Below are positions 1 through 42,372 of a DNA stretch of 64,000 bases, in pieces. Location of the stretch: contig CP133159.1 in assembly GCA_030913385.1 (NCBI GenBank), forward strand, positions 640,584-704,583, read 5' to 3'. The first letter of the stretch is position 1. The number at the start of each line of letters is the position of its first letter. The notes beneath the pieces are model-generated. The model was given only the letters and a program-made list of their open reading frames with translations. It was not told the DNA's origin and searched no databases. Source of the stretch: Cytophagaceae bacterium ABcell3 (GTDB lineage Bacteria > Bacteroidota > Bacteroidia > Cytophagales > Cytophagaceae). Both the position numbers and the translations under genes were made by a program.

Positions 1-37
1 TTTTTCATCTTTATGGTGTGATGAGTTATATACAGTA

Positions 38-1642: not shown

Positions 1643-1662
1643 GAATAGAAAAGTTAGTATTA

Positions 1663-4921: not shown

Positions 4922-4932
4922 TGTTCTAAATC

Positions 4933-5687: not shown

Positions 5688-5695
5688 TTAATTAA

Positions 5696-8600: not shown

Positions 8601-9673
8601 AAGTTTTCAATCCCTACATTTCCTTGGTTGTTTTTCAGTAAAAGATTTTTGTATGCATTAATGAACTTATTGCCGAGTTTCCACCTGTAGGATCTTAGGA
8701 TTTCCTGCTGTGCTTTTTGAAGGTCTTCTATCCAATGTGAAAGTTTTTCCAGCTCTGCTTCGGCTTTTTCTTTCTCAAATTTGATCTTGCTATTGGCTTC
8801 TGAAAATTTAGAGTTTTCAGCATTCTTTTTGTCTGCTAGGCTTTTAAGATCAATAAATTCCTTGTATATACCTTCTGTATTTTTTAATGTTAAGGCAGAT
8901 TTTAAAGAAACATTTTTATTAATTTTTTGAAGGAACTTGTTTTTCAAGTTTTGATATATCTCTTTGATCTCACCTGTCAGATATATTTGCTCTAATTGGC
9001 TGTTGTCACTTAAGTCAGAATCAAGAGTTATAGCCATCTCTTTAGGATTCCTGCTTTTAAATGTAAATCCGTGGGCGCTCAAGAATAAAATTATCTGCTC
9101 ATAAATTAATTCTGGTTCTTTTGTAAGACTATTGTAATCAACGAGTAAGTAAGGTTGGTTATCTATTTGTGTGACGCCGGATTTTACATACTTTTCCCAT
9201 AAAGCAAGTGAGAAATCTAAAGAAAACCTATTTTTTTCCCTCAGTAATTGAGCAACTTCTATTGGGTTCCTATATACAAAAATGTAAGCAGTAAAACTAA
9301 GGTACTTTTCCCAAACTTTTCCAGTTAAACAAAACCTTGGATCGCTCAGGTAAAAATCTGTATGGGTTTCGCTGTAAGTTTTCTTAACAAGGTTTTTAAT
9401 ATAGCCCTTTGTTTTTTCTGATATTTCAGAATCAAATTTTTCTGGACTGTAATTAGAAATCGAAAACCAGTTGCAGTTTATCTCTTCAAGAATGAGATCA
9501 TTAATTTTTCCTATATCATCTCTCTTCTCAAAACTATTTAAAGTATTGTCATTTGATTCTGATATTTGATTCTTTAAGCTAGGATGGATCCCTAGTTTTT
9601 CTAATACAGTTGAAATTGCTAAAGTTCCTGAACGGTGCATGCCAAGAACAATTACCGTTTTTTTATCACTCAT
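5696..9673 (-). CDS. 1325-aa multidomain protein: N-terminal PAPS-type sulfotransferase, then coiled coil, GT4-like, GT2 and a C-terminal GT-like domain
   Basis: VIVLGMHRSGT P-loop-like 5'-PSB motif at the N-terminus. GT4 motif EGVGMCSVEAMLCKTPLITTDTGGSRDF. GT2 motif LTIGIPIHNQVDYV...YEVILIDDVSDEET. Confidence 0.7.
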   Translation of the reverse strand: MSDKKTVIVLGMHRSGTLAISTVLEKLGIHPSLKNQISESNDNTLNSFEKRDDIGKINDLILEEINCNWFSISNYSPEKFDSEISEKTKGYIKNLVKKTYSETHTDFYLSDPRFCLTGKVWEKYLSFTAYIFVYRNPIEVAQLLREKNRFSLDFSLALWEKYVKSGVTQIDNQPYLLVDYNSLTKEPELIYEQIILFLSAHGFTFKSRNPKEMAITLDSDLSDNSQLEQIYLTGEIKEIYQNLKNKFLQKINKNVSLKSALTLKNTEGIYKEFIDLKSLADKKNAENSKFSEANSKIKFEKEKAEAELEKLSHWIEDLQKAQQEILRSYRWKLGNKFINAYKNLLLKNNQGNVGIENFENTIQKYNIWKKSKLSERPRPKQGKLIISILTPSTNIHGGTKRLMMIAKLLQEKGHVVNFIRQYSGSKSDWFNFSVPVIDLYFERPGSIDSLEERLPDADIFITYGNNKSAEIFSKLPESKGLKFLLFMHFGVHDLDLDIKNASIKDFHLLATTSWIAEQIHKHTGRNAKTISFGIHADQFVETPQDRSNRIGSLYHKDEWKRSRDVIKSFQILKKDIKDLTMVMFGQEKSPELPEGIEYHYNPDQSELREIYSSCSAWITASLYEGVGMCSVEAMLCKTPLITTDTGGSRDFCTNKNSLLVEKKNPSSIAEAVKKILSDPALARKIANQAYKDINDFTWEKSITKLETELLKRFSIKNPEINFTTDVELTIGIPIHNQVDYVRDCIKSIQENTSGEYEVILIDDVSDEETKSYLKELELNHHNVKYLRNTERKGFPYNCNLIITNSRGRYICLLNSDTIVTKNWNKFLADGISKNANCVITGPSTSYGIAKNFDGVVQQLDEVHTQRFDMTYEQIQDFGKDLYEREKEQYQETEYLNGFCLFFKRELINEIGFFDTSFGLGSREEVQFIDRIRLSGSKPVWVKHAYVHHYGHRSFNSYAEESKLLWEKNKELYFKNKNQKILVNTTNKRVLFVYNAKYSSSTRKRTFEIIKELSRYVKVKAKKWHKIRDTHFDNYDIFVFQRIGALNEKISPSFLKTVLKKKKKGGNKKTFIYDIDDYIIHSQNDMPLKFIKNCDYVTTSTNHLQKLLLKFNPNTVCLRNGIDTDRFLRAEPKDLNSEYVHIICFSIGAAGLEAMNELSEKLEGQKVKIHFFSSEKYEFPVHHNLNIYDSVDLDELFGFIKGADYVINWGDHPVSYIKSLAQQYNFKPEDVDNFINAKSGLKYYNAGIAKKVFITTPYPVAYSEMICHNQNGFLVNTIDEIVPIIAELEKNIEKKKEIGYNAYLDVNTNYSTKTTVLDYLSFLEKF

Positions 9674-9918
9674 GAATTGCTATTTTCTAATATGGGCTGT
9701 CAAAACCTCTTACCATTATATACTTTTCGATGGAAGTATTGACAAATGACTGCAAAATACAAAAAACAAAATTAAAAAATTGAAAGAGCTGTGCGGTTTT
9801 TCTGATGATAGTGTTCAGAAATATATTTTGTTAAAAGTTTTTTGAGCATTTAGGTTGAGGATTATAAAGTTTTCAGAAGATGTTGGGGGTATAAAAATAA
9901 GTCGTAGACAATATCATA

Positions 9919-9960
9919 TTAGGTAATTTGCTGACTATTGGTATGGAATATTACTTTGCT
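9919..9960 (+). repeat. Direct repeat copy 1 (TTAGGTAATTTGCTGACTATTGGTAT...)
   Basis: About 42 bp, roughly 80% identical to 11579..11620. Together the two copies bracket the cassette containing the GT2 fragment and the sulfotransferase. Confidence 0.6.
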
Positions 9961-10219
9961 TTTTCTCTTTTGTCCCAGCTCCTAAAAGGTGCTAGAACGT
10001 TTACATTGGATTTATTCCGACTAACTAGTGGTAATATTGGATCGCCTTGGTTTAGGTTCTAGAAAGATCGTGGTCTCTGAAGATCGTGGGAGAAAATGGC
10101 TAAGCGAGCTTGAGAGAGAGAACAGATTAATTATGTGCATATTGTGCTATAAAGGGTTACAATAAATGGGAATGGTATTACCATGTTCAATACAAGCTCT
10201 GACTGGATAAGTTATTATA

Positions 10220-10455
10220 AAATTTTTTTTGGATTTAAATCCATTTGTGCATTTAAAAGAGATTCGTGAAAAAAAGGTGGCTTTGATGAAACTTTAAAGC
10301 GTTTGGTTGAATGGGATTTAATTTTAATATTTACGTGTAAAATGATCCTATGTCTGTTCCCGCAGTACTAGTTAGTTACTACCTTAAAAAGGATATAGCC
10401 CATATAACCACAGCTGGATACTTAAACGAGAATTTACGGAAAGACTATTGGAAAA
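10220..10455 (+). pseudogene. GT2 glycosyltransferase 3' fragment (paralog of the 4097..4921 C-terminus), frameshifted
   Basis: KKGGFDETLKRLVEWDLIL and, in a second frame, SVPAVLVSYYLKKDIAHITT...KDYWKNG align with KGGFDETLTRLLDWDLIL...PVPALLVRYKIRKSIQHITT...KILSKWS of the intact gene. The fragment ends overlapping the sulfotransferase start. Confidence 0.6.
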
Positions 10456-11568
10456 ATGGGTAGAATAATAGATAGACTTATGAAAAACATTATTGTACTT
10501 GGTATGCACCGTTCAGGCACCTCTATGGTTACAGGTTTGCTATCTAAACTAGGATATTATGTTGGGGCTCCTGAAGAATTAACTAATACGAGCGAGGAAA
10601 ATCCTAAGGGTTTTTTTGAAAGAAAAGATGTAAGAAATATCAACGACGAATTATTGATAGGTAATGATTTTGACTGGTATAAAGTTGCGGGCTTTACAAC
10701 GGACTCTTTGACTGATTCTTCTGTTCATAAATATAAAGAAGAAATTTCAGGTGTTTTTAACCTTCTTAGAAAAAAGGGGCCTTTTGCAATAAAAGAGCCA
10801 CGGCTATGTCTGTTATATCTAATTTTTAAAGAAATGGTTAGGGATGATATAAAGCTATTGGTCTATCGGGATCCAATAGAGTCAGCAGAATCTTTGCTTA
10901 AGAGGAATAAGTTCCCTTTGCATTTTGGCCTTGCTTTGTGGGAGAAGTACCATAAAGCTTTATTTAACTCCCTCTCTAACGACCATTTGATTCTAGTAAA
11001 CTATAATAAATTGCTTAATGACCCAAAGGCCGAGGTTCAAAATTTGGTCAACAGTATTAATAGTTTGTCAGGGGATGACATTGCGCTTGAACAGGGTGCG
11101 CTAGATTTTATCTGCCCTGAATTGTACAGGAGCAATAAATACAAGAAATATGGTGTAGGTTATTTGACTGATAGTCAAAAGTATATATGGAATCAGTTGA
11201 AAAACTTCGATCAAAGCAAAACTTTGCGTTCACCTGAAAACCCTCTGATGGAAGTCGTTCTCGAGACTCATCAAGAATTGATGGAGGAGTATCTTCAACA
11301 GAAAGCAATTATAAATAGTCAGCGTAAGGATCTTAAAGAATCAAAAGAAGCGTTTGCAAAATTTAGGAAATCACATAGGTTAGAAGTGAAGTTTCTGCTG
11401 GATTCAATAAGAATCTTCCATGGCCGACATTTAAGTTATAAACGTTCATTAATCTTTAGAATCAAAGACATGATCAGAAAAGGACACCTTAAATACATAG
11501 ATGATAGGTATGAAGACGTATTTAGCAAATTTCCAGAGGTTACTGGTGAAAGAAAAGTTAACCAGTAG
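10456..11568 (+). CDS. Sulfotransferase family protein
   Basis: IIVLGMHRSGTS plus YRDPIESAESL and LALWEKY. It is paralogous to the N-terminal domain of the 1325-aa protein. Confidence 0.7.
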   Translation: MGRIIDRLMKNIIVLGMHRSGTSMVTGLLSKLGYYVGAPEELTNTSEENPKGFFERKDVRNINDELLIGNDFDWYKVAGFTTDSLTDSSVHKYKEEISGVFNLLRKKGPFAIKEPRLCLLYLIFKEMVRDDIKLLVYRDPIESAESLLKRNKFPLHFGLALWEKYHKALFNSLSNDHLILVNYNKLLNDPKAEVQNLVNSINSLSGDDIALEQGALDFICPELYRSNKYKKYGVGYLTDSQKYIWNQLKNFDQSKTLRSPENPLMEVVLETHQELMEEYLQQKAIINSQRKDLKESKEAFAKFRKSHRLEVKFLLDSIRIFHGRHLSYKRSLIFRIKDMIRKGHLKYIDDRYEDVFSKFPEVTGERKVNQ

Positions 11569-11620
11569 GCGATTCAATTTAGGTAATTTGCTGCCTACTG
11601 GTATAAAAATATTTTTTACT
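11562..11620. terminator. Hairpin between convergent genes; also direct repeat copy 2
   Basis: CCAGTAGGC...GCCTACTGG forms a 9-bp stem, followed by A/T runs. The stop codon of 10456..11568 lies inside the left arm. Confidence 0.5.
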
Positions 11621-12599
11621 TCTTCCCCTTCTTCCCTGCCAAAAAAGCCACACCTGCGGCGGTGGCTAGCACGGCGGTTCCTGCAAGGGCCAAGTTTTTG
11701 ACAGGTGTTCTCATACCTCTGGTATTTTCATATCCTCCACTGACTGATTTAAAGTTAGGATTGGGCTCGTAAAGGTTGCCTTTTGAGGGTTCTGAGGACT
11801 CTTGGCTAAAGTGCTTCTTATAAACGCCTTTTCTGTATAGTTTTGCAAAAGTCTCTGGCGCAAATGCTTTGACAATGCCGTTCATTACACCCATGCCTCC
11901 TATGATTACTTCGGGTTGCGGTTTTTCTGCTAATTTTACAATGGTTTCAGCTACTTCTTTGGCTTCTAACACCGGGTTCATAGGTTTTACCTCACGCCCC
12001 ATATAGTTGCTTAGCTGTCTGAACAGTGGTGTGTCGATGGTTGCTGGCAGTACAGAGCAAACATGGATGTTTTTTTCGTCAGACAGTTCATGCTGTAGAG
12101 CCAAGCTCATACCGCGAATGCCTGCTTTGCTGGTGGTATAAGCAAATGAATAAGCTTGCCCCGTCATCCCTACGATGGAGGATAGGTTGATAAGCACGCC
12201 ATGTCCTTGCTCTCTGAAGTATTTTATTACGGCTTTTGCTCCATAAATGTATCCAAATAGGTTTACTTTAATGACCCTCTCAATATCTTCTATTGGAGAG
12301 TCGTCAAACTTCCCCATCATGGCTACGGCAGCATTGTTTACCCATACATCAATTCTTCCATAGGTTTCATATGCTTTTCGGGCCAGGTCTTTCACTTGGT
12401 CTTGGTTTGATACGTCTAAAGCATATACCATGGCTTCGCCACCAGCTTCTTTGCATTCTTGGGCCAGCTCGTCCAGAGCTTCTTTTTTTCTTGCAGCTAA
12501 AATTACGGTTTGGCCTTGTTTAGCAAATTCCAGAGCCGTTGCACGTCCTATTCCGCTTGACGCTCCTGTAATTACAATTACTTTTTCCTTTCCTTTCAT
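11616..12599 (-). CDS. SDR family oxidoreductase with C-terminal hydrophobic anchor
   Basis: VIVITGASSGIGRAT Rossmann motif, the YTTSKAG catalytic YxxxK, and a C-terminal LALAGTAVLATAAGVAFLAGKKGKK tail. Confidence 0.85.
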   Translation of the reverse strand: MKGKEKVIVITGASSGIGRATALEFAKQGQTVILAARKKEALDELAQECKEAGGEAMVYALDVSNQDQVKDLARKAYETYGRIDVWVNNAAVAMMGKFDDSPIEDIERVIKVNLFGYIYGAKAVIKYFREQGHGVLINLSSIVGMTGQAYSFAYTTSKAGIRGMSLALQHELSDEKNIHVCSVLPATIDTPLFRQLSNYMGREVKPMNPVLEAKEVAETIVKLAEKPQPEVIIGGMGVMNGIVKAFAPETFAKLYRKGVYKKHFSQESSEPSKGNLYEPNPNFKSVSGGYENTRGMRTPVKNLALAGTAVLATAAGVAFLAGKKGKK

Positions 12600-12775
12600 T
12601 TTTTCCTTTTTTAAAAATGTGGGGTTAAATGAGTTTTATTATCGGCTATTAGTTTTAAGACTATTTTTTTGCTTATATGTTTATCTATTTAAATTACAAA
12701 TACACCAAGTGACACAGTTACCTAATGTATATAAGTTTAGCAGTTTGCCCACATAACTATTTATGGTTTTAGAGG

Positions 12776-14194
12776 TTGGGTTTATCTATGGGTGAAAGTA
12801 GTGGCAATATGCGACTGGTCAGAAAAGAAGTTAAAGAGGCTCCTACAGGCATTAAGTGGGTGAAGTATCTAGCTCCTGGACTGATTTGGATGGTTTCTTC
12901 TATAGGGTCAGGGACAATTTTGTTTACCCCTAGGATTGGAGCTCGCTATGAATATGAATTAGTGTGGATGGCTATTGCGATCAGTGCGCTTATATTTTTT
13001 GTCATTAAAGAGGTGGCGCGCTTTACAGTGGTTACAGGCAAATCTATTATAGAAGGTTTTAGTATGCTTCCCGGCCCTATCAACTGGGGCGTTTGGTTTT
13101 TGTTTCTCCCACACTTATTTGCTGCTATTATTATGGCCAGTGGTCTTGCCTTACTTGCGGGGAGTACGGCTATAACAACATTTGGGGGCAGTCCGGTGGT
13201 CTATGCAGTAGTCTTGATCATTGCTTGTTTGGCTTTGGTGCTTTCTGGAAAATATAAAGGTTTTGAGAAGGCTACATCTGTCCTGGGTGGGCTATTAGTT
13301 GTTATTGCCTTAATTACAGCTATTCGGGTGTTGCCTGGAACAGGGGCGCTGATTCGTGGGACAGTTCCCCAAATCCCTTATGACTTTGATATAACCTTTG
13401 TACTTCCTTGGGTGGGCTTTTTTCTGGCCGGTGCAGCTGGCCTATTGTGGTTTTCTTACTGGGTAGCAAGTAAAGGGTTTGGAGGCTCTCTTTTAGGAGA
13501 GGATGGCATTCAGGTGCTAAACCATGAGGAAGGGTTGCAAAAAAGTGATGAGCGTTTAATTAAGTTTGGCAAATGGATGAAGGTTCTGAATGCAGCATGC
13601 TTACTGGGAATTGTCACCGGTGCTTTGATCAATTTTGCGTTTCTTGTTTTAGGCACAGAATTGCTTGCGCCCGAGGGTGTTATACCTGAAGGTGTAGAGG
13701 TTGCTGAAGATTTAACCCTACTTCTTTCAGGAGTGTGGGGCGAAACAGGAAGGTGGTTTTTGCTCATCAGTGTTTTTATTGCTTTGACTGGTAGCATTAT
13801 GAGTAACCAAGATGGCTATGGTAGAATGTTTTCTGATACAACCTTGTTGTTGTTTGGTCATAAATTAAAGAGAAAGTCAAAAACAGGCTATGGTAAATGG
13901 GTCTCAAAAAAGTCAAACATTGCCGCTGTTTATAGTACCATATTTTCAGCTTTCATTCCTATGATGCTTTATTTTTGGCTGGAAGATCCTGTAACTATTC
14001 TTTCGGCATCAGGAATTATTTCTGCTATTCATATTCCTTTTATCGTTTTTGGGACATTGTATATTAACAATAGGTTCATTCCTGTGAACCTCAGGCCAGG
14101 ACGTTTTTCTGTTGCCTTGCTTTGGCTGGCAGGTATTTTTTTTAGTCTACTAGCTTTTCAGCAGGTTGTTGAACTGTTCGGCATTGAATTTTAG
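12776..14194 (+). CDS. Nramp-related membrane transporter (atypical metal-site motif)
   Basis: APGLIWMVSSIGSGT...YEYELVWM aligns to the Nramp TM1 region GPGxL...DPGN...GYxLLW, but reads GSGT in place of DPGN. No MPH motif was found in TM6. Confidence 0.55.
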   Translation: MGLSMGESSGNMRLVRKEVKEAPTGIKWVKYLAPGLIWMVSSIGSGTILFTPRIGARYEYELVWMAIAISALIFFVIKEVARFTVVTGKSIIEGFSMLPGPINWGVWFLFLPHLFAAIIMASGLALLAGSTAITTFGGSPVVYAVVLIIACLALVLSGKYKGFEKATSVLGGLLVVIALITAIRVLPGTGALIRGTVPQIPYDFDITFVLPWVGFFLAGAAGLLWFSYWVASKGFGGSLLGEDGIQVLNHEEGLQKSDERLIKFGKWMKVLNAACLLGIVTGALINFAFLVLGTELLAPEGVIPEGVEVAEDLTLLLSGVWGETGRWFLLISVFIALTGSIMSNQDGYGRMFSDTTLLLFGHKLKRKSKTGYGKWVSKKSNIAAVYSTIFSAFIPMMLYFWLEDPVTILSASGIISAIHIPFIVFGTLYINNRFIPVNLRPGRFSVALLWLAGIFFSLLAFQQVVELFGIEF

Positions 14195-14242
14195 TAATTT
14201 ATATACGATACATGACCTCTTGGACGATTAAGGGTTAAAACA

Positions 14243-14275
14243 AAAAAGCCGCACAGGGGCGGCTTTTTTGTTTTA
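14243..14275. terminator. Bidirectional Rho-independent terminator
   Basis: AAAAAAGCCGCACAGGGGCGGCTTTTTTGTTTT, positioned between convergent genes. Confidence 0.8.
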
Positions 14276-14288
14276 AGTTGTAAAGAAG

Positions 14289-14789
14289 TCATTCCTCTCC
14301 CGTCTCTATTGCTTCAAACAAAAGGGATTCGCCTGAGTCGCCGTAGTAGACAGTCATGATATTGTAATACATGCTAAACTCCGTTGCTGTCTCAATAGCT
14401 TTTATAAGCCTGCTTTCGTAGCTTAAAAGCTCTGACGGCTCTAATAGAGATGAAGAAACTTCTGCTTCACCTGTGCTGATTTGATCATTGTTGACTGTAT
14501 AGAAGCCTTCGAACCTGTTTAAAACGGCTCCGGTATATACGCCTCCATCAAAAGTTATAATAATTCGGTAGTTAGGATTGTTGTCGTAGGCAATACATGG
14601 GGGGTATTCAAGCTGGTCGCCGCCTTTTGTTTGGAATCCAATGAACTTCCAGCTCCCGTTAAACTCTTTTTCCTCACCTTGCTTCACTGAGTAGCTTACT
14701 CTGCATGGAGGGTCTGCACGCTCTTCTTCTTTTTGGCAAGAAGACATTATTACCAGAAGCAATAATGTAAACGGTAAAATTATTTTCAT
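14289..14789 (-). CDS. Lipoprotein, hypothetical
   Basis: Signal peptide with lipobox: MKIILPFTLLLLVIMSSCQ. Confidence 0.6.
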   Translation of the reverse strand: MKIILPFTLLLLVIMSSCQKEEERADPPCRVSYSVKQGEEKEFNGSWKFIGFQTKGGDQLEYPPCIAYDNNPNYRIIITFDGGVYTGAVLNRFEGFYTVNNDQISTGEAEVSSSLLEPSELLSYESRLIKAIETATEFSMYYNIMTVYYGDSGESLLFEAIETGEE

Positions 14790-14951
14790 GGTAAGATTAA
14801 ATTATTAGAAACTAAGAAACGCAAAATCAACGTAATTTAGTGAATTGTGTTGAAATAAAAATATTCCTAATAAAAAAATACTAATGTACCTAAAAAAGTA
14901 AGTGTGAAAAAGTAAAAAGTAGAGGTATCGCTTTATGGCCCCTCTACTTTT

Positions 14952-15122
14952 TAACCTGGATTATTCGTTAGATTTCGTTATGAGGGGCAAAATAACAAAA
15001 AATCAGCGTATTTGGTTTGCAAAGCATAGTGGTTCTATGGTTAAAAACCAAATGCGAGCGAAGCGTCTGATTTGGAGTTATTTTGCCACGCAATAGAAAG
15101 TTCTAATGCATGTTTCAGGTTT
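14952..15122 (+). repeat. MITE-like repeat copy A (about 170 bp, TTAA-flanked, CCTGGA...TTCAGG termini)
   Basis: About 90% identical to the reverse complement of 33284..33452. It abuts the stop codon of the DHS-like gene. Confidence 0.8.
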
Positions 15123-15126
15123 AAAG

Positions 15127-16104
15127 TTACCACCCTAAAATATGGGCAAACATTAATGGCGCTACTATGGTCGCGTCGCTTTCCACTATAAACTTAGGGG
15201 TATTAATATCAAGTTTTCCCCAAGTAATTTTTTCATTAGGCACAGCACCTGAATAAGAGCCATAGGAAGTGGTAGAGTCAGAAATTTGACAGAAGTAGCT
15301 CCAAAATGGGACGTCATGCCACTCGAGATCCTGATACATCATCGGCACAACACAAATCGGAAAATCTCCGGCTATACCACCACCAATTTGGAAGAAACCA
15401 ACCCCTTTGCCTCCTGAGTTTTCTTTGTACCATTGGGTAAGGTATGTCATGTATTCGATGCCACTTTTCATCGTAGAGGGCTTAAGTTCCCCTTTTATGC
15501 AGTATGATGCAAAAATATTCCCCATGGTGCTATCTTCCCACCCTGGAACTATGATTGGAAGGTTTTTCTCCGCTGCAGCCAACATCCAGCTGTCTTTCGT
15601 GTCTATTTCATAGTGCTCTTTCATTGCACCAGAAAGCAGCAGTTTATACATATATTCATGTGGTAAATACCGCTCGCCTTTTTCTTCTGCCTCTTTCCAA
15701 ATTTTAAAAATATGCTTTTGAATCCTTCTGAAGGCTTCTTCTTCGGGAATGCAGGTGTCGGTAACCCTATTATAGCCATTTTCCAATAACTCCCATTCCT
15801 CTTGAGGGCTAAGGTCTCTATAATGTGGTACGCGCTTATAGTGTGTGTGCGCCACCAGGTTCATGATATCTTCCTCAAGGTTTGCCCCGGTACAGGAAAT
15901 AATTGATACCTTGTCCTGGCGAATCATTTCGGCAAGGGAAAGCCCGAGCTCTGCGGTGCTCATAGCTCCGGCAAGGGTAATCATCATTTTGCCACCTTCG
16001 TTCAGGTGTGTTACATAGCCTTTGGCGGCATCCATCATTGCGGCAGCATTGAAATGGCGGTAGTGGTGCGCCATAAATTGGGAAATGGGTCCTTGTGTTG
16101 TCAT
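15127..16104 (-). CDS. Deoxyhypusine synthase-like protein
   Basis: LAGAMSTAELGL...SCTGANLEEDI and a C-terminal ITWGKLDINTPKFIVESDATIVAPLMFAHIL match the DHS family. Confidence 0.75.
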   Translation of the reverse strand: MTTQGPISQFMAHHYRHFNAAAMMDAAKGYVTHLNEGGKMMITLAGAMSTAELGLSLAEMIRQDKVSIISCTGANLEEDIMNLVAHTHYKRVPHYRDLSPQEEWELLENGYNRVTDTCIPEEEAFRRIQKHIFKIWKEAEEKGERYLPHEYMYKLLLSGAMKEHYEIDTKDSWMLAAAEKNLPIIVPGWEDSTMGNIFASYCIKGELKPSTMKSGIEYMTYLTQWYKENSGGKGVGFFQIGGGIAGDFPICVVPMMYQDLEWHDVPFWSYFCQISDSTTSYGSYSGAVPNEKITWGKLDINTPKFIVESDATIVAPLMFAHILGW

Positions 16105-16414
16105 CTTTTTTAATTTTTATGCTTTTTTAACTGAATTTGGCCTTTTGCTTAAAACTTTCACAAATTTTACTATTTAACTGAATTTTGTAACAAAAAATTA
16201 AAAAATTATTCTAGCATTAATTTCTAAACCTGGAATATGCACGAGAATTTGCTATTGCCCCTATTGACGAAATCTATTGCTTTAATTATCTGCAAAAACA
16301 CATGAGTTAGGTTAGCAGTTCACAAGATTAGAATGATCAGAGTGCTTTCTTAAATCAAACATAGTCATTGGTGGCAGGTTATTTTTTAATGAGAAACCAG
16401 ATGATCGACAGACT

Positions 16415-16792
16415 ATGGAATATATAATGGGAAAAACGCATTGGGCAATTGCAGAAGGGCTTATTCCTGATGAAAGTACAGGGCCGGAGCCAGAAATGGA
16501 AAGTCATGAGACGGCTTGCATCTTAAATACCAGTGACCAAGATGCACATGTAGAAATCATGATATACTTTAAAGGTAAAGACCCTGTAGGGCCATATAAA
16601 TATACGGTCCCGGCAAAAAGGGTTGAGCATATTCGTTTTAACAACTTAAATGATCCGGAGCCAATTCCTCGGGGCGAAGATTATGCAAGCACTATTATTT
16701 CAGATGTTCCAATAGTTGTGCAGCACTCCCGGTTAGATTCACGCCAATCTGAAAATGCATTGATGACAACCATGGCTTATGCCGCTACTTAA
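16415..16792 (+). CDS. Sensory rhodopsin transducer-like protein (ASRT family)
   Basis: 125 aa. WAIAEG, GPEP, SHETxCILN, VGPY and VPIVVQHSRLDSRQSENAL match my recollection of ASRT/TM1070-type proteins. Confidence 0.6.
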   Translation: MEYIMGKTHWAIAEGLIPDESTGPEPEMESHETACILNTSDQDAHVEIMIYFKGKDPVGPYKYTVPAKRVEHIRFNNLNDPEPIPRGEDYASTIISDVPIVVQHSRLDSRQSENALMTTMAYAAT

Positions 16793-16855
16793 ATTCGGTT
16801 GGGCAAGACTAATTAAAGTTAATTTAATTCATGGGTTGCATGTAAAATAGGTTTT

Positions 16856-18511
16856 ATGGTAAATCAATGGTATAAAAGTGCTGTTGTCTATGGCATTGAT
16901 GTAAAGGTTTTCAGTGATTCGGATGGGGATGGAATGGGAGATTTTCAAGGGCTTATCAGTAAACTCGACTATCTTTCTTCCTTAGGGGTAAATTGCTTAT
17001 GGTTGTTGCCATTCCACCCGTCACCTAAAATAGACAATGGATATGATGTAGCAGATTATTATAATGTAGATCCGGCGCTGGGAAACCTTGGGGACTTTGT
17101 TCAGTTTATTCATGAAGCTGACCAAAGAGGCATTAGGGTTATTATGGATTTGGTTATTAACCACACTTCTGTAGAAAATTCGTGGTTTAAAGATGCCAGT
17201 GCCACCAGGGAGTCACGGTATAGAGACTATTATATATGGGAAGACGAGCCGAAGGAAAATAAAGAAAAAGTAATGCTCAAAGGGATACAAGAAAGTATCT
17301 GGGAGTATTCAGAGGCAACGGATTCCTATTACCTACACAGGTATTTTAAAGACCAGGCAGATTTAAATTTGGCCAACCCAAGGGTTCGAAAAGAAGTCCT
17401 TAAGATTATGGATTTTTGGCTTAAGCTAGGCGTTTCTGGTTTCAGGATAGATGCGGCACATGTGGTCACAGACCCCGCTGATGTGGACCATATCGATTTC
17501 GGAAACCTCCACACTTTATTTGATGAGATGCGGGCTTTCCTTGATATCCGTAATCCCAATGCTGTTTTACTTGGTGAAGCGAGTGTGGGACCTGATGAAC
17601 TTCCTAAATACTTTGGCAACAATGAGTCGGGGAAAGAACGAATACACATGCTTTTTAACTTTCTCATTAATAAGCATATCATGTTGTCCTTTGCGAGACA
17701 AGAAGGGGCAACTGTTGCTAAAGGTTTAAAGCTATACAAAGATATAGCACAATCCCATTGGTTAAACTTTGTTCGCCATCATGACGAGCTTAACCTGGAG
17801 CTTCTAAGCGATGATGAACGAATGGAGGTTTGGAATGCTTTTGCCCCGGAAGAAGATATGCGCCTTTTTGGGCATGGTATTAGGAGAAGGTTGCCTCCCA
17901 TGCTAAAAAACAATCATGCGAGGATCCGACAAATTTACAGTCTTATGTTCAGCATGCCTGGTACTCCATTGATAAGTTATGGGGAAGAAATAGGTATGGG
18001 CGACAATCTCAGCCTTGAAGGGCGAGAAAGTGTAAGGACTCCTATGCAGTGGTCTCCTGTAAAAGGTGGCGGCTTCTCAACTGCTGACCCTGAAGACTTG
18101 TACCGGCCAGTGATTGAGTCTGGTGATTATAGTACAGAGAAGATCAACGTCAATGACCAACAGAATGATCCAAGCTCTTTGTTAAACTGGTTCTGTTCCT
18201 TAGTTAAAGTGCGACGGCAGAACCCTGTAATTGGAATGGGTGCGTGGGATATATTAAATGTAAGTGATTCCTGTGCAGTTGCTTTGATCTACGAAATGCC
18301 AGAGGCTACTGTGGTTGTAGCCCATAACCTTTCTCCAGAACCGGTTGAGGTAAGTGTGGATACCGGGTTTCTGCTAAAATCGGCAGTAGAAATTTTTTCT
18401 GATGAAAAATATGACAAGGAAATTCTATTTAACAAGCTAAAGTTAAACGGTTACGGCTATCGCTGGATCCAGGTGCTGGACAAAGAAAAAATAACATTCT
18501 TAAATAATTAG
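16856..18511 (+). CDS. GH13 family alpha-glucan enzyme (trehalose synthase / oligo-1,6-glucosidase-like)
   Basis: WYKSAVVYGIDVKVFSDSDGDGMGDFQGL, the DLVINHTS motif and GFRIDAAHV; 551 aa. Confidence 0.85.
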   Translation: MVNQWYKSAVVYGIDVKVFSDSDGDGMGDFQGLISKLDYLSSLGVNCLWLLPFHPSPKIDNGYDVADYYNVDPALGNLGDFVQFIHEADQRGIRVIMDLVINHTSVENSWFKDASATRESRYRDYYIWEDEPKENKEKVMLKGIQESIWEYSEATDSYYLHRYFKDQADLNLANPRVRKEVLKIMDFWLKLGVSGFRIDAAHVVTDPADVDHIDFGNLHTLFDEMRAFLDIRNPNAVLLGEASVGPDELPKYFGNNESGKERIHMLFNFLINKHIMLSFARQEGATVAKGLKLYKDIAQSHWLNFVRHHDELNLELLSDDERMEVWNAFAPEEDMRLFGHGIRRRLPPMLKNNHARIRQIYSLMFSMPGTPLISYGEEIGMGDNLSLEGRESVRTPMQWSPVKGGGFSTADPEDLYRPVIESGDYSTEKINVNDQQNDPSSLLNWFCSLVKVRRQNPVIGMGAWDILNVSDSCAVALIYEMPEATVVVAHNLSPEPVEVSVDTGFLLKSAVEIFSDEKYDKEILFNKLKLNGYGYRWIQVLDKEKITFLNN

Positions 18512-18514
18512 ACA

Positions 18515-19483
18515 ATGATGAAACTAGGTTACCATATATCACATGAGCAGTTTTCGCCAGCAGACCTTTTAAGGTATGTGAAGAAAGCTGAGGAAGCAGG
18601 TTTTCAATTTGCTTTGTCTTCTGATCATTTTCACCCGTGGAACAATGACCAAGGGCACTCTGGGTTTGCCTGGGCGTGGTTAGGAGCGGCTATGGCACAA
18701 ACGGATTTGAATTTTGGTGTAGTCAATTGCCCAGCGTACAGATACCATCCAGCTATTATTGCTCAGGCTGCAGCCACACTGGACAATATGTTTCCTGATA
18801 GGTTTTGGATGGCCATAGGTAGCGGTCAGGCGTTGAATGAAGCTATTAACGGAGAGCATTGGCCAGCCAGGGAAGAACGTAACAACAGGCTTAAAGAGGC
18901 AGCGGATATAATGGAAACTTTATGGAGAGGCGATTCTGTTACGCGTCATGGAGTGATTAAAGTGGAGGAGGCCAAGCTTTACACACTTCCACAAAGAAAA
19001 ATTCCATTGATTGGGGCAGCCATTACGCCGGACACAGCTGCTTGGCTGGCTACCTGGGCTGATGGCATGATCACCATTTCACAACCTGTCCAGCAATTGC
19101 AAAAAGTGGTAGATGCGTGGAAAAACAATGGCGGAGAAAATAAGCCGATGGTCCTAAAGGTGCAGGTCTCTTATGACAAGTCTGACGAGGAGGCTGTAAA
19201 AGGAGCACATGAACAATGGAAAACAAATGTTTTTGGGAGTGACATGCTTGCGGAACTAAGGACACCTCTTCAATTTGAGCAGGCTGCCATGCATGTGAAG
19301 CCGGAAGAGCTTCATGGACACGTAAATATGTCCAGTGACCCAGGGCGACATATCGATTGGTTAAATCAGTATATGGAGATGGGCTTTTATGAACTTTCTA
19401 TTCATAATGTCAATAAGAAGCAAGAGCAGTTTATTGATGCTTTTGGCGAGAAAATCATCCCAGAGTTGATGGTGACGCACTAA
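18515..19483 (+). CDS. LLM-class flavin/F420-dependent oxidoreductase (Fgd/G6PD-like)
   Basis: MKLGYHISHEQFSP...SSDHFHPW...CPAYRYHPAIIAQAAATLD resembles the F420-dependent G6P dehydrogenase family. Confidence 0.7.
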   Translation: MMKLGYHISHEQFSPADLLRYVKKAEEAGFQFALSSDHFHPWNNDQGHSGFAWAWLGAAMAQTDLNFGVVNCPAYRYHPAIIAQAAATLDNMFPDRFWMAIGSGQALNEAINGEHWPAREERNNRLKEAADIMETLWRGDSVTRHGVIKVEEAKLYTLPQRKIPLIGAAITPDTAAWLATWADGMITISQPVQQLQKVVDAWKNNGGENKPMVLKVQVSYDKSDEEAVKGAHEQWKTNVFGSDMLAELRTPLQFEQAAMHVKPEELHGHVNMSSDPGRHIDWLNQYMEMGFYELSIHNVNKKQEQFIDAFGEKIIPELMVTH

Positions 19484-19515
19484 TGTAGAATTTCAATTAT
19501 GATAAACATATAACT

Positions 19516-19815
19516 ATGGAGAGCTACATGCCAGTGCCTTGGGACTTTAGGGAAATGGTAGAAGAGGCAATTAAGCAGGAAGCCTCGGGAACTATCAATT
19601 ATTTTGGAGAAAACGATGCCATACTTTCGGTAATGGGGGCAGTTGAAGAACAACAGGAAATCCCTGGTGAAGGGGAGTTTTTGGTAATGGATTCGGGAAA
19701 GCTTGTCCGTATGGATTTGGTGATTACCTTGTTTGGCAAGCCGGGGCCTGCTTTTGATAAGTATGATGGGTTTGCCAATGAATGCCTTTCTTGTACAGGA
19801 GGCTATGATTTATAA
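19516..19815 (+). CDS. Hypothetical small protein
   Basis: The ORF sits directly downstream of the LLM gene and is followed by a terminator. Confidence 0.3.
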   Translation: MESYMPVPWDFREMVEEAIKQEASGTINYFGENDAILSVMGAVEEQQEIPGEGEFLVMDSGKLVRMDLVITLFGKPGPAFDKYDGFANECLSCTGGYDL

Positions 19816-19821
19816 ACAACA

Positions 19822-19850
19822 AAAGAGCCGACAAAGGCTCTTTTGTTTAT
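19822..19850 (+). terminator. Rho-independent terminator
   Basis: AAAAGAGCCGACAAAGGCTCTTTTGTTTATTTT. Confidence 0.75.
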
Positions 19851-19873
19851 TTTGCTTTTACTAAGGCAGGCCA

Positions 19874-20422
19874 TTAACTTACATACTGTACTGTCTGTCT
19901 GATAGGAAATCTTTTGAAAATCTTATGAACGGTTTTAGAAATATTTCTTCCTGTAAACGTTCTGCTGTCTACTACATCTGAATAGGTGCCGCTCCAAACA
20001 ATTTTATTTGTTTTCTGGTCTATAGCATTGATAGTGATAGTCGCATGTTGATAATGTATAGGGTATGTGTGATAACCTGCGACTCCCCAATGAGGCCCCC
20101 AGCCCCAACCCCACCATGGAGACATTCCCCATATAGGTTGCATGCCTACGGTTCTTCTTTTGTTGACTTTTACCTTGAAGTCCAACAAAAGATCTGGATT
20201 TATGCTGTCGCCCCTAAATCCGCGGTTATGCATTTCCCTATTAGCGGCATGGTGTATGTTTCCGTGAAGTATCGAACGAGGTTCCCCGTCATCTTCATGT
20301 TTGATCCATGCGTAAGTACGATAGTTTGTAAAATCTGCTCCAGCAACTTTGTCGGAATAGATGTTTCTGTTACATGCTCCTAATATTGGGATCAGTAGCA
20401 GTAAAAAATATAGCTTTTTCAT
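19874..20422 (-). CDS. Trp-rich lipoprotein, hypothetical
   Basis: MKKLYFLLLLIPILGACN lipobox; contains WWGWGWGPHWG. Confidence 0.55.
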   Translation of the reverse strand: MKKLYFLLLLIPILGACNRNIYSDKVAGADFTNYRTYAWIKHEDDGEPRSILHGNIHHAANREMHNRGFRGDSINPDLLLDFKVKVNKRRTVGMQPIWGMSPWWGWGWGPHWGVAGYHTYPIHYQHATITINAIDQKTNKIVWSGTYSDVVDSRTFTGRNISKTVHKIFKRFPIRQTVQYVS

Positions 20423-20475
20423 TTGATGCAGTTGTTGACTTTTGAGAATTAACGTTAATGGGTGTGGGATTGGTT

Positions 20476-20660
20476 CTTTAAGCGCATTAAAAATGCATTA
20501 AAATAAGCGGGTTTAGGGGTTTATGTTCTCTAGGGTATTACTTGTTGGTGAAAAACACCAACAAGGGGGGGGGCTTTATGCTCATTAAAAATGCATTAAA
20601 ATAAGTGGCCGGGGTTTATATTACTTGTTGGTGAAAAACACCAACAAGAGGGGGAGGGGA
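20476..20660 (+). repeat. Two tandem units of a palindromic-hairpin repeat (TTGTTGGTGAAAAACACCAACAA followed by a G-run)
   Basis: Units at 20476..20572 and 20581..20660 share ATTAAAAATGCATTAAAATAAG...TTACTTGTTGGTGAAAAACACCAACAAGRGGGGG. Confidence 0.8.
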
Positions 20661-20775
20661 AAGCGGGGTAAAAAAGAAGTGCCTACGCTGGGGCAAGTTT
20701 TTTTTTAATTGAAATAGCCTTGACATAAAGCATGTCAAGGCTGTGGGTTATGTTCTAAGAGATGATTGTTGTTGT

Positions 20776-21000
20776 TTAATCCCCCTTATTTATCTTCTTG
20801 TCAGAAACAGGGCCTGAACCATATTTATAATGATCACCTCCTCCTTTGTTCTTATTTTTGGCACCGGCTGCGTTTGACACATCTCCTGGGTTGCCAGCTT
20901 CTTCTCTATATTTTTTCTTTTTGACCATGTCTATTTTTTCCATGCCTGCTCCCGGTGCATGTGACGGACGGTTCTGGTTTTCTTTATTTTTAGTTCCCAT
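20776..21000 (-). CDS. Small Lys/Gly-rich hydrophilic protein (possibly a KGG-type stress protein)
   Basis: 74 aa, very basic and hydrophilic, with a GAKNKNKGGGDHYKYGSG segment. Confidence 0.3.
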   Translation of the reverse strand: MGTKNKENQNRPSHAPGAGMEKIDMVKKKKYREEAGNPGDVSNAAGAKNKNKGGGDHYKYGSGPVSDKKINKGD

Positions 21001-21140
21001 AATATATCGGTTTTTTAATCTTTATTTCATAAACATGAATTTTTTGTCTTATTGTTCATAGGCTGCTGTAGGTATGGTTAGGAGGTCGTTAAGAGAACGC
21101 AAAAGCTTCTCTTGTTGTTTTTATTTAAAAGCGGAAGACT

Positions 21141-21755
21141 ATGAAGGTGGATGAAAAGTTGAAAGAAGTTGTAGAAAGGGAAAGCCAGGTTTTACAGGGG
21201 GAAGAAGGGAGAAGCGCTATATATTATAGCAGGAAAGCCTTTGATTATGCAGAAGAGGCGGAAGAAGCCTATAGGCAAGCCGTTGATAAGTTATTTGATG
21301 TTAACGGTTGGAGTGATATAGGTGGACTTACTACGGCCAAATTTTCTTTGTATGACCCAGATGGTAAACCTACAGATCATTTAGAGCTAGGATGTTTTGT
21401 TAAAGTTGAACTGCCTGGCCCTTTTCCTGAAAACTGGGTTAGGGTAAATGAGGTTTACGAAGAGGATTTTGTCGCAGAGTTTAAAGTACACCCTTCGCAC
21501 AGTCCTCTAAATAAAGAGCATCAGGAAGTGGTAGATCATTTTTTTACGAGTGATGCAAGCAGTTCTTTTCGTGTTACATTGAAAGAGAAGCTACTTTCTG
21601 CCTATGAAATTGGAAGGGACGAATATATCAACAACCGTGACGAAGAGTCCGGAGACAGGAAAGTTACCAATACACTTATTTCTGAGGGTGGCTGGATGGC
21701 TTTCCAGAAAATTCAATGGCAGAGCTTAACGGATTATTTGGTAGGAGAATCTTAA
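21141..21755 (+). CDS. Hypothetical protein
   Basis: A 204-aa ORF followed by an intrinsic terminator. Confidence 0.45.
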   Translation: MKVDEKLKEVVERESQVLQGEEGRSAIYYSRKAFDYAEEAEEAYRQAVDKLFDVNGWSDIGGLTTAKFSLYDPDGKPTDHLELGCFVKVELPGPFPENWVRVNEVYEEDFVAEFKVHPSHSPLNKEHQEVVDHFFTSDASSSFRVTLKEKLLSAYEIGRDEYINNRDEESGDRKVTNTLISEGGWMAFQKIQWQSLTDYLVGES

Positions 21756-42010: not shown

Positions 42011-42370
42011 TTAAAGATTTCCAGGACTTTTATATCTTTTGCGGTGCCTGACCGACTCAAGGGAAATCCCTTGTAAGACCAGTTGCAATACCGAGGCGGA
42101 TATTTCAGATTTGGTCACATTTTTGCAATGGACAGGTATTTCATAAGTCCCTCTTTCAAGGCGTTTGTGATACATACTGAAACCGTCGCCTTCCCATAAA
42201 AGGAGCTTGACATGGTTTCGGTTTCGGTTCAGGAAAATAAAAATGTCCCCGTTCATGGGGTTTTCGTTAAGTTTGCTCCTTACAATACCTGATAGGCTGT
42301 CAAACCCTTTCCGCATGTCGGTTTTGCCCGAATAGAGAAAGTACCTGCACTGGTGAGACAATGAAAGCAT
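42011..42370 (-). CDS. IS66 accessory protein TnpB (Orf2)
   Basis: GKTDMRKGFDSLSGIV...FIFLNRNRNHVKLL. Confidence 0.8.
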   Translation of the reverse strand: MLSLSHQCRYFLYSGKTDMRKGFDSLSGIVRSKLNENPMNGDIFIFLNRNRNHVKLLLWEGDGFSMYHKRLERGTYEIPVHCKNVTKSEISASVLQLVLQGISLESVRHRKRYKSPGNL

Positions 42371-42372
42371 GG

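What the first reader, a model, noticed from the sequence alone, without database searches (positions are those of the whole stretch)
16415..19815. ASRT-like gene directly upstream of a GH13 (TreS-like) gene and an Fgd-like LLM oxidoreductase
ASRT homologs in genomes without rhodopsins have been noted next to carbohydrate-metabolism genes (for example Thermotoga TM1070). Here the 125-aa ASRT-like ORF is 64 bp upstream of a GH13 enzyme, whose stop is 3 nt from an F420/FMN-dependent G6PD-like oxidoreductase, followed by a small ORF and a terminator. This supports a sugar-related role for ASRT-family proteins. The Fgd-like enzyme is an unusual partner in a Bacteroidota-like genome.
Basis: partly seen in the sequence, partly recalled or inferred. 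Interest (0 to 1): 0.55.

Follow-up and report, generated by a model that had tools for sequence, protein, structure and literature searches.

The report
Conserved ASRT–amylase–flavoenzyme sugar operon
A small "rhodopsin transducer"-family protein sits in one operon with a trehalose-synthase-like enzyme and a flavin oxidoreductase; the same trio recurs in many unrelated bacteria, but the link between this protein family and sugar genes was already published in 2009.

Summary
Window 16415-19815 holds four co-directional ORFs that end at a strong terminator: ASRT (66% identical to Anabaena ASRT), a catalytically intact TreS-like GH13, an LLM oxidoreductase and a 99-aa ORF. De Souza, Iyer and Aravind (2009) already linked stand-alone ASRT genes to sugar operons, including the Sinorhizobium amylase locus. 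That locus has the same ASRT–GH13–LLM order as here. The "Fgd-like" enzyme belongs to TIGR03885, the FMN-type branch of the Fgd family. It keeps the Fgd residues that act on the sugar C1 hydroxyl but lacks the phosphate pocket, so it is not an F420 glucose-6-phosphate dehydrogenase and is not an odd partner. It is the most conserved partner of this GH13: 8 of 13 metagenomic relatives have the GH13 adjacent and no ASRT. ASRT is an add-on that elsewhere joins GH15 trehalase-like, FAD lactone-oxidase, SDR and TPP/enolase genes. The 99-aa ORF is a real gene but a passenger. Best reading: a trehalose/maltose cassette in which GH13 makes a reducing sugar, the LLM oxidises its anomeric carbon, and ASRT binds a sugar as an accessory or regulatory protein. 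This is a new member of a known kind, of moderate interest.

The parts
16415..16792 (+). Stand-alone ASRT-family (PF07100) beta-sandwich protein, 125 aa, pI 4.8. It carries the family signature S30-H31-E32-T-A-C35-I-L-N38 and W10.
16856..18511 (+). TreS-like GH13 alpha-glucoside enzyme, 551 aa. The catalytic Asp/Glu/Asp are intact (GFRIDAAHV, LLGEASV, FVRHHDEL). It scores below the NCBI TreS equivalog cutoff.
   Evidence: TIGR02456 535 bits vs cutoff 678; best PDB hits are all TreS, E 4e-129.
18515..19483 (+). TIGR03885 'FMN-dependent' luciferase-like (LLM) oxidoreductase derived from the Fgd family, 322 aa. The equivalents of Fgd1 E13/H40/W44 are kept and the phosphate pocket is lost.
19516..19815 (+). 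99-aa conserved hypothetical (RCC89_02790) with a predicted Sm/WYL/Rof-like fold. It is probably co-transcribed but is not part of the conserved cassette.
19818..19847 (.). Intrinsic terminator hairpin (12-bp stem, T-run) between the convergent ORF99 (+) and the DUF4136 gene (-).
16105..16414 (+). 310-nt divergent intergenic region upstream of ASRT, where the promoter is presumed to lie. No promoter or RNA element was identified.
12776..14194 (+). Nramp-related transporter lacking the canonical DPGN/MPH metal-site motifs. It is a possible associated gene, because it recurs beside ASRT clusters in L031 and L124.
11616..12599 (-). NF004792-type SDR oxidoreductase (327 aa, hydrophobic C-terminal tail). 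It is a possible associated gene, because the same SDR type sits next to ASRT in about 10 other loci.

Best explanation
Window 16415-19483 is a three-gene cassette of ASRT, a TreS-like GH13 and a TIGR03885 flavin LLM. It is transcribed together with a passenger ORF up to the terminator at 19818-19847, and it acts on trehalose, maltose or related alpha-glucosides. Shown: the genes are co-directional and nearly abutting. The same trio recurs in the same order in Bacteroidota, Cyanobacteria and Sinorhizobium pSymB (the 'treS' smb20099 locus), and in permuted order in Betaproteobacteria and Gemmatimonadota; a Bdellovibrionota locus has LLM-ASRT beside a more distant GH13 (28% identity). GH13 plus LLM is the conserved core pair. 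ASRT is a frequent add-on that elsewhere partners other sugar-converting enzymes. Inferred: the GH13 converts the non-reducing disaccharide into a reducing sugar (maltose and/or glucose). The LLM keeps the Fgd residues that act on the sugar C1 hydroxyl but has no phosphate pocket, like the M. tuberculosis FGD2 glucose dehydrogenase. It would oxidise the free anomeric carbon of a non-phosphorylated sugar to the lactone, using FMN rather than F420. ASRT would be a cytoplasmic, probably tetrameric protein that binds a sugar or sugar derivative and tunes the neighbouring enzymes, or their expression, as proposed by De Souza et al. 2009.
Against: No biochemical data exist for any TIGR03885 member, for this GH13 clade or for a non-cyanobacterial ASRT (literature searches). 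The GH13s score 532-570 bits against a TreS cutoff of 678, so trehalose-maltose isomerase activity is not assured. The FMN cofactor rests only on the NCBIfam name. Glu109 of Fgd1 is Gln in the window protein. Trehalose itself has no free C1 hydroxyl, so the order of reactions is a guess. Published experiments on Anabaena ASRT show rhodopsin and DNA binding, not sugar binding (PMC8660804). No promoter was identified and there is no transcript evidence.
Confidence: 0.55

Rival explanations
1. ASRT is a DNA-binding and DNA-bending transcriptional regulator that controls its own operon, as proposed for Anabaena ASRT on the pec, kaiABC and related promoters. The sugar enzymes would simply be its regulon.
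For: Anabaena ASRT binds promoter DNA and loops 100-bp DNA in vitro (PMC8660804; PMC3198991). The window protein is 66% identical to it. ASRT is usually the first gene of its cluster.
Against: The protein is acidic (pI 4.8). It has no recognisable DNA-binding motif, and its only Pfam family is ASRT. In many loci ASRT sits last or in the middle, for example LLM-ASRT in L018, L024 and L027 and GH13-LLM-ASRT in L034. Two paralogues flank one ALO gene in 9 loci, which looks more like subunits than like regulators. Gene overlaps and very short gaps suggest stoichiometric co-production.
Confidence: 0.2
2. ASRT is itself an enzyme of sugar handling, for example an anomerase/mutarotase or a lactone-processing enzyme. 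It would bridge an alpha-retaining glycosidase and anomer-specific dehydrogenases or oxidases.
For: Conservation is unusually high for a 125-aa protein: 66-82% identity across phyla and domains. Many polar residues are invariant: S30, H31, E32, C35, N38, R69, H72, Q103, R106, D108. Its partners are glycosidases plus C1-acting or lactone-acting oxidoreductases (LLM, SDR, ALO-type FAD oxidase), and no lactonase or mutarotase was seen in the clusters. Earlier work also found it in monosaccharide ABC-transporter and isomerase/kinase operons (PMC2739507), where mutarotases typically occur. That last point is general knowledge.
Confidence: 0.12
3. The genes are neighbours because they belong to a common osmotic, desiccation or general-stress regulon, not to one pathway. 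The LLM and ASRT would act on non-carbohydrate substrates.
For: Neighbourhoods contain stress-type genes: OtsAB (L069), mechanosensitive channels (L124), ferritin-like and isoaspartyl methyltransferase genes (L122) and glutathione peroxidase (L114). Many hosts are soil, desert-crust or haloalkaline organisms.
Against: Co-regulation alone does not explain direct abutment or overlap of GH13 and LLM in either order across phyla. It also does not explain retention of the sugar C1-hydroxyl catalytic trio in the LLM.
Confidence: 0.1
4. [quoted passage not shown]
For: Fgd1 structures are clear homologues (3B4Y E 2.8e-45). The closest solved structure, 9HAV, is probably the Thermomicrobium roseum Fgd (the identification is an inference).
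Against: It scores 171 bits against the Fgd equivalog cutoff of 420 and passes TIGR03885. The phosphate-binding K198, K259 and R283 are all replaced. All TIGR03885-type sequences show a one-residue gap at the Fgd1 Ser73 position. The family occurs in S. meliloti, cyanobacteria, Bacteroidota and other groups.
Confidence: 0.03

Closest known systems
ASRT-like family of the ASRAH superfamily (Pfam PF07100; Anabaena ASRT PDB 2II7; Thermotoga TM1070 PDB 1NC7), with the sugar-operon contexts described by De Souza, Iyer and Aravind 2009 (PMC2739507)
   Same: Full-length PF07100 match. 66% identity to Anabaena ASRT. SHEshChhN signature and conserved Trp. Stand-alone cytoplasmic protein of about 125 aa. 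Encoded beside carbohydrate enzymes, including an 'amylase' as in Sinorhizobium.
   Different: No rhodopsin lies next to it. The published description does not mention the TIGR03885 LLM, the NF004792-type SDR, the GH15 trehalase-like gene or the Nramp-related partners found here.
Sinorhizobium meliloti pSymB locus: TPP enzyme - ASRT - ALO - ASRT - 'treS' (smb20099) - TIGR03885 LLM - LhgO
   Same: Same ASRT-GH13-LLM order with tight spacing. The GH13 is 42-45% identical and the LLM 49% identical to the window proteins. The GH13 is also below the TreS cutoff.
   Different: The S. meliloti cluster is larger: it has a second ASRT, an ALO-type FAD oxidase, a TPP enzyme and LhgO. Its GH13 has NLDEL instead of (N/H)HDEL in region IV. 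The window has the 99-aa passenger ORF instead.
Trehalose synthase TreS (maltose alpha-D-glucosyltransferase, TIGR02456; e.g. PDB 5X7U, 4TVU, 3ZO9)
   Same: Full-length alignment. About 41% identity to 5X7U. The GH13 catalytic triad and conserved regions I-IV are present. TreS structures are the best PDB hits.
   Different: It scores 535 bits against the curated equivalog cutoff of 678, as do all six linked homologues tested. Region II reads DAAHV rather than DAVPY/F in the Bacteroidota members. There is no maltokinase fusion.
F420-dependent sugar dehydrogenases of the LLM family: Fgd1 (3B4Y), Rh-FGD1 (5LXE), Mtb FGD2/Rv0132c glucose dehydrogenase (9FP4)
   Same: TIM-barrel LLM fold family. 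The equivalents of Glu13, His40 and Trp44, which contact the sugar C1 hydroxyl, are conserved. Like FGD2, it has no phosphate pocket.
   Different: It is classified as FMN-type (TIGR03885). It shows a one-residue gap at the Fgd1 Ser73 position and Gln in place of Glu109. It occurs in organisms not known to make F420 (that last point is general knowledge and was not tested here).

Membership tests
ASRT-like family (PF07100 / ASRAH superfamily) | Full-length match to the PF07100 profile above the gathering score | tested here: met
   183.9 bits against a cutoff of 25, residues 5-123 aligned to profile positions 1-119 of 119.
ASRT-like family (PF07100 / ASRAH superfamily) | Strand-2 signature SHEshChhN with the pocket His and Cys, plus the conserved Trp at strand 1 and the Asn (De Souza 2009) | tested here: met
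   S30-H31-E32-T33-A34-C35-I36-L37-N38 and W10 are present. They are invariant or nearly so across 30-74 homologues (definition).
ASRT-like family (PF07100 / ASRAH superfamily) | Eight-stranded beta-sandwich fold of 2II7 / 1NC7 | tested here: met
ASRT-like family (PF07100 / ASRAH superfamily) | Stand-alone, single-domain, intracellular protein | tested here: met
   125 aa, no hydrophobic segment, and no other Pfam domain.
ASRT-like family (PF07100 / ASRAH superfamily) | Homotetramer with a ligand cleft at the dimer interface; sugar binding | not testable with these tools
   Only monomer prediction is available. No ligand assay is possible.
Rhodopsin-coupled transducer (function of Anabaena ASRT) | Co-operonic or co-encoded sensory rhodopsin | tested here: not met
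   The neighbours are a DHS-like gene and GH13. No 7-TM rhodopsin-like ORF lies in the 64-kb window, and the only 242-aa multi-TM ORF has no Pfam match. The rest of the genome could not be searched.
TreS, maltose alpha-D-glucosyltransferase (TIGR02456 equivalog) | Score at or above the curated equivalog cutoff | tested here: not met
   535.1 bits against 678.35. Six syntenic homologues score 532-570 bits.
TreS, maltose alpha-D-glucosyltransferase (TIGR02456 equivalog) | GH13 catalytic Asp nucleophile, Glu acid/base and Asp stabiliser in conserved regions II-IV | tested here: met
   GFRIDAAHV, LLGEASV and FVRHHDEL. The catalytic Asp/Glu/Asp of regions II-IV are conserved in all 13 linked homologues and in TreS 5X7U.
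TreS, maltose alpha-D-glucosyltransferase (TIGR02456 equivalog) | Trehalose-maltose interconversion activity | not testable with these tools
   This needs an enzyme assay.
TIGR03885 FMN-dependent LLM class oxidoreductase | Score at or above the curated cutoff | tested here: met
   487.3 bits against 398.7. Four syntenic homologues score 452-530 bits.
TIGR03885 FMN-dependent LLM class oxidoreductase | FMN rather than F420 as cofactor; host lacks F420 biosynthesis | not testable with these tools
   Only 64 kb of the genome is available, and the genome is not in the searchable collections. The cofactor needs biochemistry.
[quoted passage not shown] | Equivalog score, and the phosphate pocket Lys198/Lys259/Arg283 | tested here: not met
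   171 bits against a cutoff of 420. The pocket residues are Pro, Leu and His in the window protein and are absent in all 26 TIGR03885-type sequences.
Intrinsic (Rho-independent) terminator | GC-containing hairpin immediately followed by a T-run at the end of the last gene | tested here: met
   19818-19847, 12 bp with 5 GC pairs, tail TATTTTGCTT, -18.2 kcal/mol, z -5.5.

The most novel reading that the evidence does not exclude
The ASRT + TreS-like GH13 + TIGR03885 LLM cassette encodes an undescribed, non-phosphorylative oxidative route for trehalose or maltose. The route would run from disaccharide to reducing sugar to aldonolactone. The oxidising enzyme would be a flavin-dependent descendant of Fgd working as an aldose C1 dehydrogenase. 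ASRT would be a working component, such as an anomerase, a lactone-handling protein or an enzyme-bound sugar sensor, rather than a photosignal transducer. This would give the ASRT family its first general biochemical function. The same logic would extend to its other partners (GH15, ALO-type FAD oxidase, SDR, enolase-superfamily dehydratase and TPP enzyme).
Probability: 0.2. Interest if true: 0.65.

Novelty: new member of a known kind. Interest (0 to 1): 0.35.

Why it matters
ASRT is widely conserved, at 60-80% identity from Bacteroidota to haloarchaea, and its structure is solved. Yet its function outside one cyanobacterium is unknown. This locus and its relatives show a recurrent, tightly linked enzyme pair: a TreS-like GH13 and an FMN-type Fgd relative. 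That pair gives concrete substrates to test, and the same cassette sits in a genetically tractable organism (S. meliloti pSymB, treS/smb20099). If the inferred chemistry holds, it would define the function of the uncharacterised TIGR03885 family, refine what 'treS' annotations mean in many genomes, and settle whether ASRT proteins are sugar sensors. If it does not hold, the locus remains an ordinary example of a gene neighbourhood already described in 2009.

Tried and rejected
1. The context of the second ASRT paralogue of the same genome (P0044, 72% identity) could not be retrieved: no record exists, and the genome is absent from genome contigs.
2. A greedy longest-ORF gene caller failed on high-GC loci, finding ASRT in only 26 of 59. 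It was replaced by all-ORF clustering and tblastn.
3. No promoter was identified. No Bacteroidota-type TAnnTTTG motif lies upstream of ASRT on the + strand, and sigma-70 consensus hits do not exceed the shuffled expectation.
4. The Rfam scan of 11000-21500 found nothing above threshold. The weak 'sraL' hits are just the terminator hairpin. The ASRT-GH13 spacer has no notable structure.
5. ORF99 as a cassette member was rejected. It has only 10 homologues, and their contexts are unrelated.
6. The F420 G6PD reading was rejected.
7. The mutarotase or enzyme idea for ASRT gained no structural support. It is kept only as a low-probability rival.
8. Literature searches for 9HAV, TIGR03885, smb20096-20101 and DUF1362/PF07100 gave nothing beyond De Souza 2009. 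The S. meliloti treS paper (Dominguez-Ferreras 2009) is not held.
9. PLSDB carries no gene table for NC_003078, so an annotated pSymB copy was used instead.
Full report
**Observation**

ASRT-like is 16415-16792 (125 aa). GH13 is 16856-18511 (551 aa). The LLM is 18515-19483 (322 aa). The small ORF is 19516-19815 (99 aa). All are on the + strand, with gaps of 63, 3 and 32 nt.

Two bases after the last stop codon lies a 12-bp hairpin with a T-run at 19818-19847. It folds at -18.2 kcal/mol, z = -5.5 against shuffles. It sits between the small ORF and a convergent DUF4136 gene. No terminator-like site lies between the genes on the + strand, and the ASRT-GH13 spacer has no unusual structure. The region upstream, 16105-16414, is a divergent intergenic region shared with a deoxyhypusine-synthase-family gene on the - strand. 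I could not identify a promoter there, and Rfam finds no RNA element.

An exact protein match identifies the source genome as Cytophagaceae bacterium ABcell3, a 5.1-Mb contig.

**What the genes are**

*ASRT.* The first protein is an unambiguous ASRT-family member.
- PF07100 matches at E 1.1e-54 over the whole profile.
- It is 66.1% identical to the crystallised Anabaena ASRT (2II7, E 5e-53) and clearly related to Thermotoga TM1070 (1NC7, E 4.6e-13).
- It carries the family pocket signature S30-H31-E32-x-x-C35-x-L37-N38 and W10, as defined by De Souza et al.. These residues are invariant or nearly so in my alignments.

*GH13.* The second protein is most like trehalose synthases.
- All top PDB hits are TreS, the best being 5X7U at E 4e-129.
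- The Asp/Glu/Asp catalytic residues are intact.
- It nevertheless scores 535 bits against the curated TreS cutoff of 678. Six syntenic homologues from other phyla also score 532-570 bits. NCBI's pipeline names the S. meliloti one only 'alpha-amylase family protein'.

*LLM.* The third protein passes the TIGR03885 'FMN-dependent LLM class oxidoreductase' cutoff (487 vs 399 bits). It fails the Fgd equivalog (171 vs 420 bits).
- Aligned to M. tuberculosis Fgd1, it keeps the residues that contact the sugar C1 hydroxyl: Glu13, His40 and Trp44 correspond to E11, H38 and W42.
- The phosphate pocket Lys198/Lys259/Arg283 is Pro/Leu/His in the window protein. It is absent in all 26 TIGR03885-type sequences I collected. 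The residue roles come from PMC3859598 and PMC13434993.
- M. tuberculosis FGD2 also lacks that pocket and was recently shown to be an F420-dependent glucose dehydrogenase (PMC13434993).
- The closest solved structure is 9HAV (E 4e-79). It is probably the hexameric Thermomicrobium roseum Fgd described as CASP16 target T1278. That identification is my inference, from the matching count of 54 independent monomers.

*ORF99.* The 99-aa ORF is a real gene (RCC89_02790) with ten homologues. In Anseongella and in soil metagenomes those homologues sit in unrelated contexts. I therefore treat it as a passenger that is probably co-transcribed.

**Related loci**

I scanned one genome per species with the ASRT protein and obtained 58 loci from many phyla, including haloarchaea. 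I analysed them by tblastn and ORF clustering, with Pfam and NCBIfam on cluster representatives. The recurrent neighbours are as follows.

| Neighbour of ASRT | How often |
|---|---|
| TIGR03885-type LLM | 12 full-length + 2 partial of 58 loci, mostly abutting ASRT; about 0.23 expected by chance, P about 7e-19 |
| TreS-like GH13 | L001, L002, L034, L048 |
| GH15/TREH_N trehalase-like gene | directly downstream in L004, L017, L037; elsewhere in the locus in L015 and L046 |
| ALO-type FAD oxidase (TIGR01679) between two ASRT paralogues | 8 scan loci, plus S. meliloti |
| TPP enzyme / enolase-superfamily / about 1050-aa FAD-FeS oxidase / NF004792-type SDR set | about 10 loci |

Of 63 ASRT loci (the scan set plus six retrieved by other routes), 42 carry at least one of these families.

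The exact ASRT-GH13-LLM order of the window recurs in four further places:
- a Bacteroidota-like contig, L114;
- the cyanobacterium Mastigocladopsis repens, L124, where Nramp-like, GH15 and HAD genes precede it;
- the cyanobacterium Stenomitos frigidus, L125;
- S. meliloti pSymB, where the arrangement is TPP - ASRT - ALO - ASRT - alpha-amylase family - TIGR03885 LLM - LhgO, with overlapping or 1-nt-spaced genes.

Permuted versions occur in Methylobacillus (L002) and a Gemmatimonadaceae MAG (L034). A Pseudobdellovibrionaceae MAG (L031) has LLM-ASRT followed by a GH13 that is only 28% identical.

The reciprocal scan used the LLM against metagenomes. Of the 13 close relatives (50% identity or more), 8 have the TreS-like GH13 directly adjacent, in either order. 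None of those contigs has an ASRT. Four of the remaining five contigs are too short to tell. The fifth, L069, has an OtsA-OtsB trehalose-6-phosphate synthase/phosphatase fusion divergent from the LLM.

GH13 plus LLM is therefore the conserved core. ASRT is a mobile accessory that also attaches to other sugar-converting modules.

**Prior knowledge**

De Souza, Iyer and Aravind (2009, PMC2739507) already showed several of these points. Stand-alone ASRT genes occur in genomes without rhodopsin. [quoted passage not shown] The authors proposed a sugar-binding regulatory role.

Ugalde et al. (PMC3198991) concluded that the ASR-ASRT pairing is peculiar to Anabaena PCC 7120. The S. meliloti GH13 is the gene called treS, smb20099 (PMC4960864). 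I matched it to the locus by position only, because the gene table of NC_003078 is not held.

What the text of that paper does not mention is the LLM, the GH15 trehalase-like gene, the SDR type and the Nramp-related gene. I found no literature on TIGR03885.

**Mechanism**

Shown: the cassette is a conserved, tightly packed unit. The LLM is independently tied to trehalose genes in three ways (TreS-like GH13, GH15 trehalase-like, OtsAB). Its active site keeps the C1-hydroxyl machinery of Fgd without a phosphate site.

Inferred: the GH13 turns trehalose, or a related alpha-glucoside, into a reducing sugar. The LLM oxidises that sugar's anomeric carbon to a lactone using a flavin. ASRT binds a sugar or sugar derivative and modulates the enzymes or their expression. 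I give this composite 0.55.

Rivals:
- ASRT as a DNA-binding regulator (0.2). It is supported by in-vitro work on the Anabaena protein (PMC8660804). It is weakened by the acidic pI (4.8), the variable gene position and the paralogue pairs around ALO.
- ASRT as an enzyme such as an anomerase or lactone-handling protein (0.12). It is attractive on context and conservation but has no structural support.
- Co-localisation through a shared stress regulon (0.1).
- A true F420 G6PD (0.03).

**Limits**

Whether the genome encodes a rhodopsin or F420 biosynthesis cannot be tested. Only 64 kb is available, and the genome is not in the searchable collections. Within the window there is no rhodopsin-like ORF. 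The FMN assignment rests on the NCBIfam family name.

**Verdict**

The locus is a new member of a known kind. The cassette is a good, testable entry point to the still-unknown function of ASRT proteins and of the TIGR03885 family.

Noticed in passing
window 12776-14194 (+); also L031 3900-5177 and L124 1137-2546: An Nramp-family transporter (NF037982, Pfam Nramp) lies 2.2 kb upstream of ASRT. Homologues at 38-42% identity sit beside ASRT/GH/LLM clusters in a Bdellovibrionota MAG and in the cyanobacterium Mastigocladopsis. All three have GSG(T/E/S) where canonical Nramps have DPGN, and they lack the MPH motif, so the substrate may not be a divalent metal.
   Followed up: partly
window 11616-12599 (-); L113 6167-7156; about 10 loci of L003-L029: A 327-aa SDR of the NF004792 type, with a hydrophobic C-terminal tail, recurs directly next to ASRT in many phyla. 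It is 55% identical to the SDR that follows ASRT-GH13 in L113. In the window it lies 3.8 kb from ASRT.
   Followed up: partly
window 19516-19815 (+): ORF99 (RCC89_02790) belongs to a tiny family of 10 proteins with an invariant TLFGKPGPA...N-x-C-x-x-C motif. The AF2 model (pLDDT 88) has an Sm-like barrel. Its best Foldseek neighbours are all weak: WYL domains, Hfq and the Rho inhibitor Rof/YaeO (E 0.05-0.3).
   Followed up: partly
same genome, outside the window (protein P0044): Cytophagaceae bacterium ABcell3 encodes a second ASRT paralogue, 72% identical. Its genomic context could not be retrieved.
   Followed up: partly
L009, L019, L021, L026, L028, L031, L039, L046, L122: An ALO-type FAD oxidase (TIGR01679, related to sugar-1,4-lactone oxidases) is flanked by, or directly adjacent to, two divergent ASRT paralogues. 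These are about 65% and about 45% identical to the window protein. The arrangement occurs in haloarchaea, Luteimonas (Gammaproteobacteria), Myxococcota, Bdellovibrionota and S. meliloti, and suggests a hetero-oligomeric ASRT pair serving that oxidase.
   Followed up: partly
L069 3476-5674 (-) and 6001-6957 (+): In a 291-kb metagenomic contig, the TIGR03885-type LLM (58% identical) has no GH13 neighbour. Instead it is divergently adjacent to an OtsA-OtsB fusion (GT20 + trehalose phosphatase). This is a further trehalose link.
   Followed up: partly
PDB 9HAV-9HAY (closest solved relative of window 18515-19483): The entry is named only 'Luciferase family protein'. Its 54 chains in 4 entries match the description of CASP16 target T1278, the hexameric Thermomicrobium roseum F420-dependent G6PD. 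Unlike the window protein, it keeps the Lys259/Arg283 equivalents.
   Followed up: partly
L120/L122 GH13 (S. meliloti treS, smb20099): GH13 region IV reads FLRNLDEL in S. meliloti, where characterised TreS and the other linked homologues have (N/H/S)HDEL. The usually conserved His next to the catalytic Asp is replaced by Leu.
   Followed up: no
window 15127-16104 (-): A deoxyhypusine-synthase-family gene (PF01916; below all NCBIfam equivalog cutoffs) is divergently transcribed from the ASRT operon. It is not conserved next to ASRT elsewhere.
   Followed up: no
window 1-11600: A lower-GC segment (33-37% against about 40%) holds very large multi-domain glycosyltransferases (1325 aa with GT4 + GT2; 822 aa) and a sulfotransferase-like gene. 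It looks like a surface-polysaccharide island.
   Followed up: no
window 42000-62800: By N-terminal sequence only, several ORFs look like mobile-element or defence genes. Examples are a pair at 58706-61099 and 61156-62802 that resembles type I restriction-modification subunits, and small ORFs at 42011-42783. None was checked with any tool.
   Followed up: no
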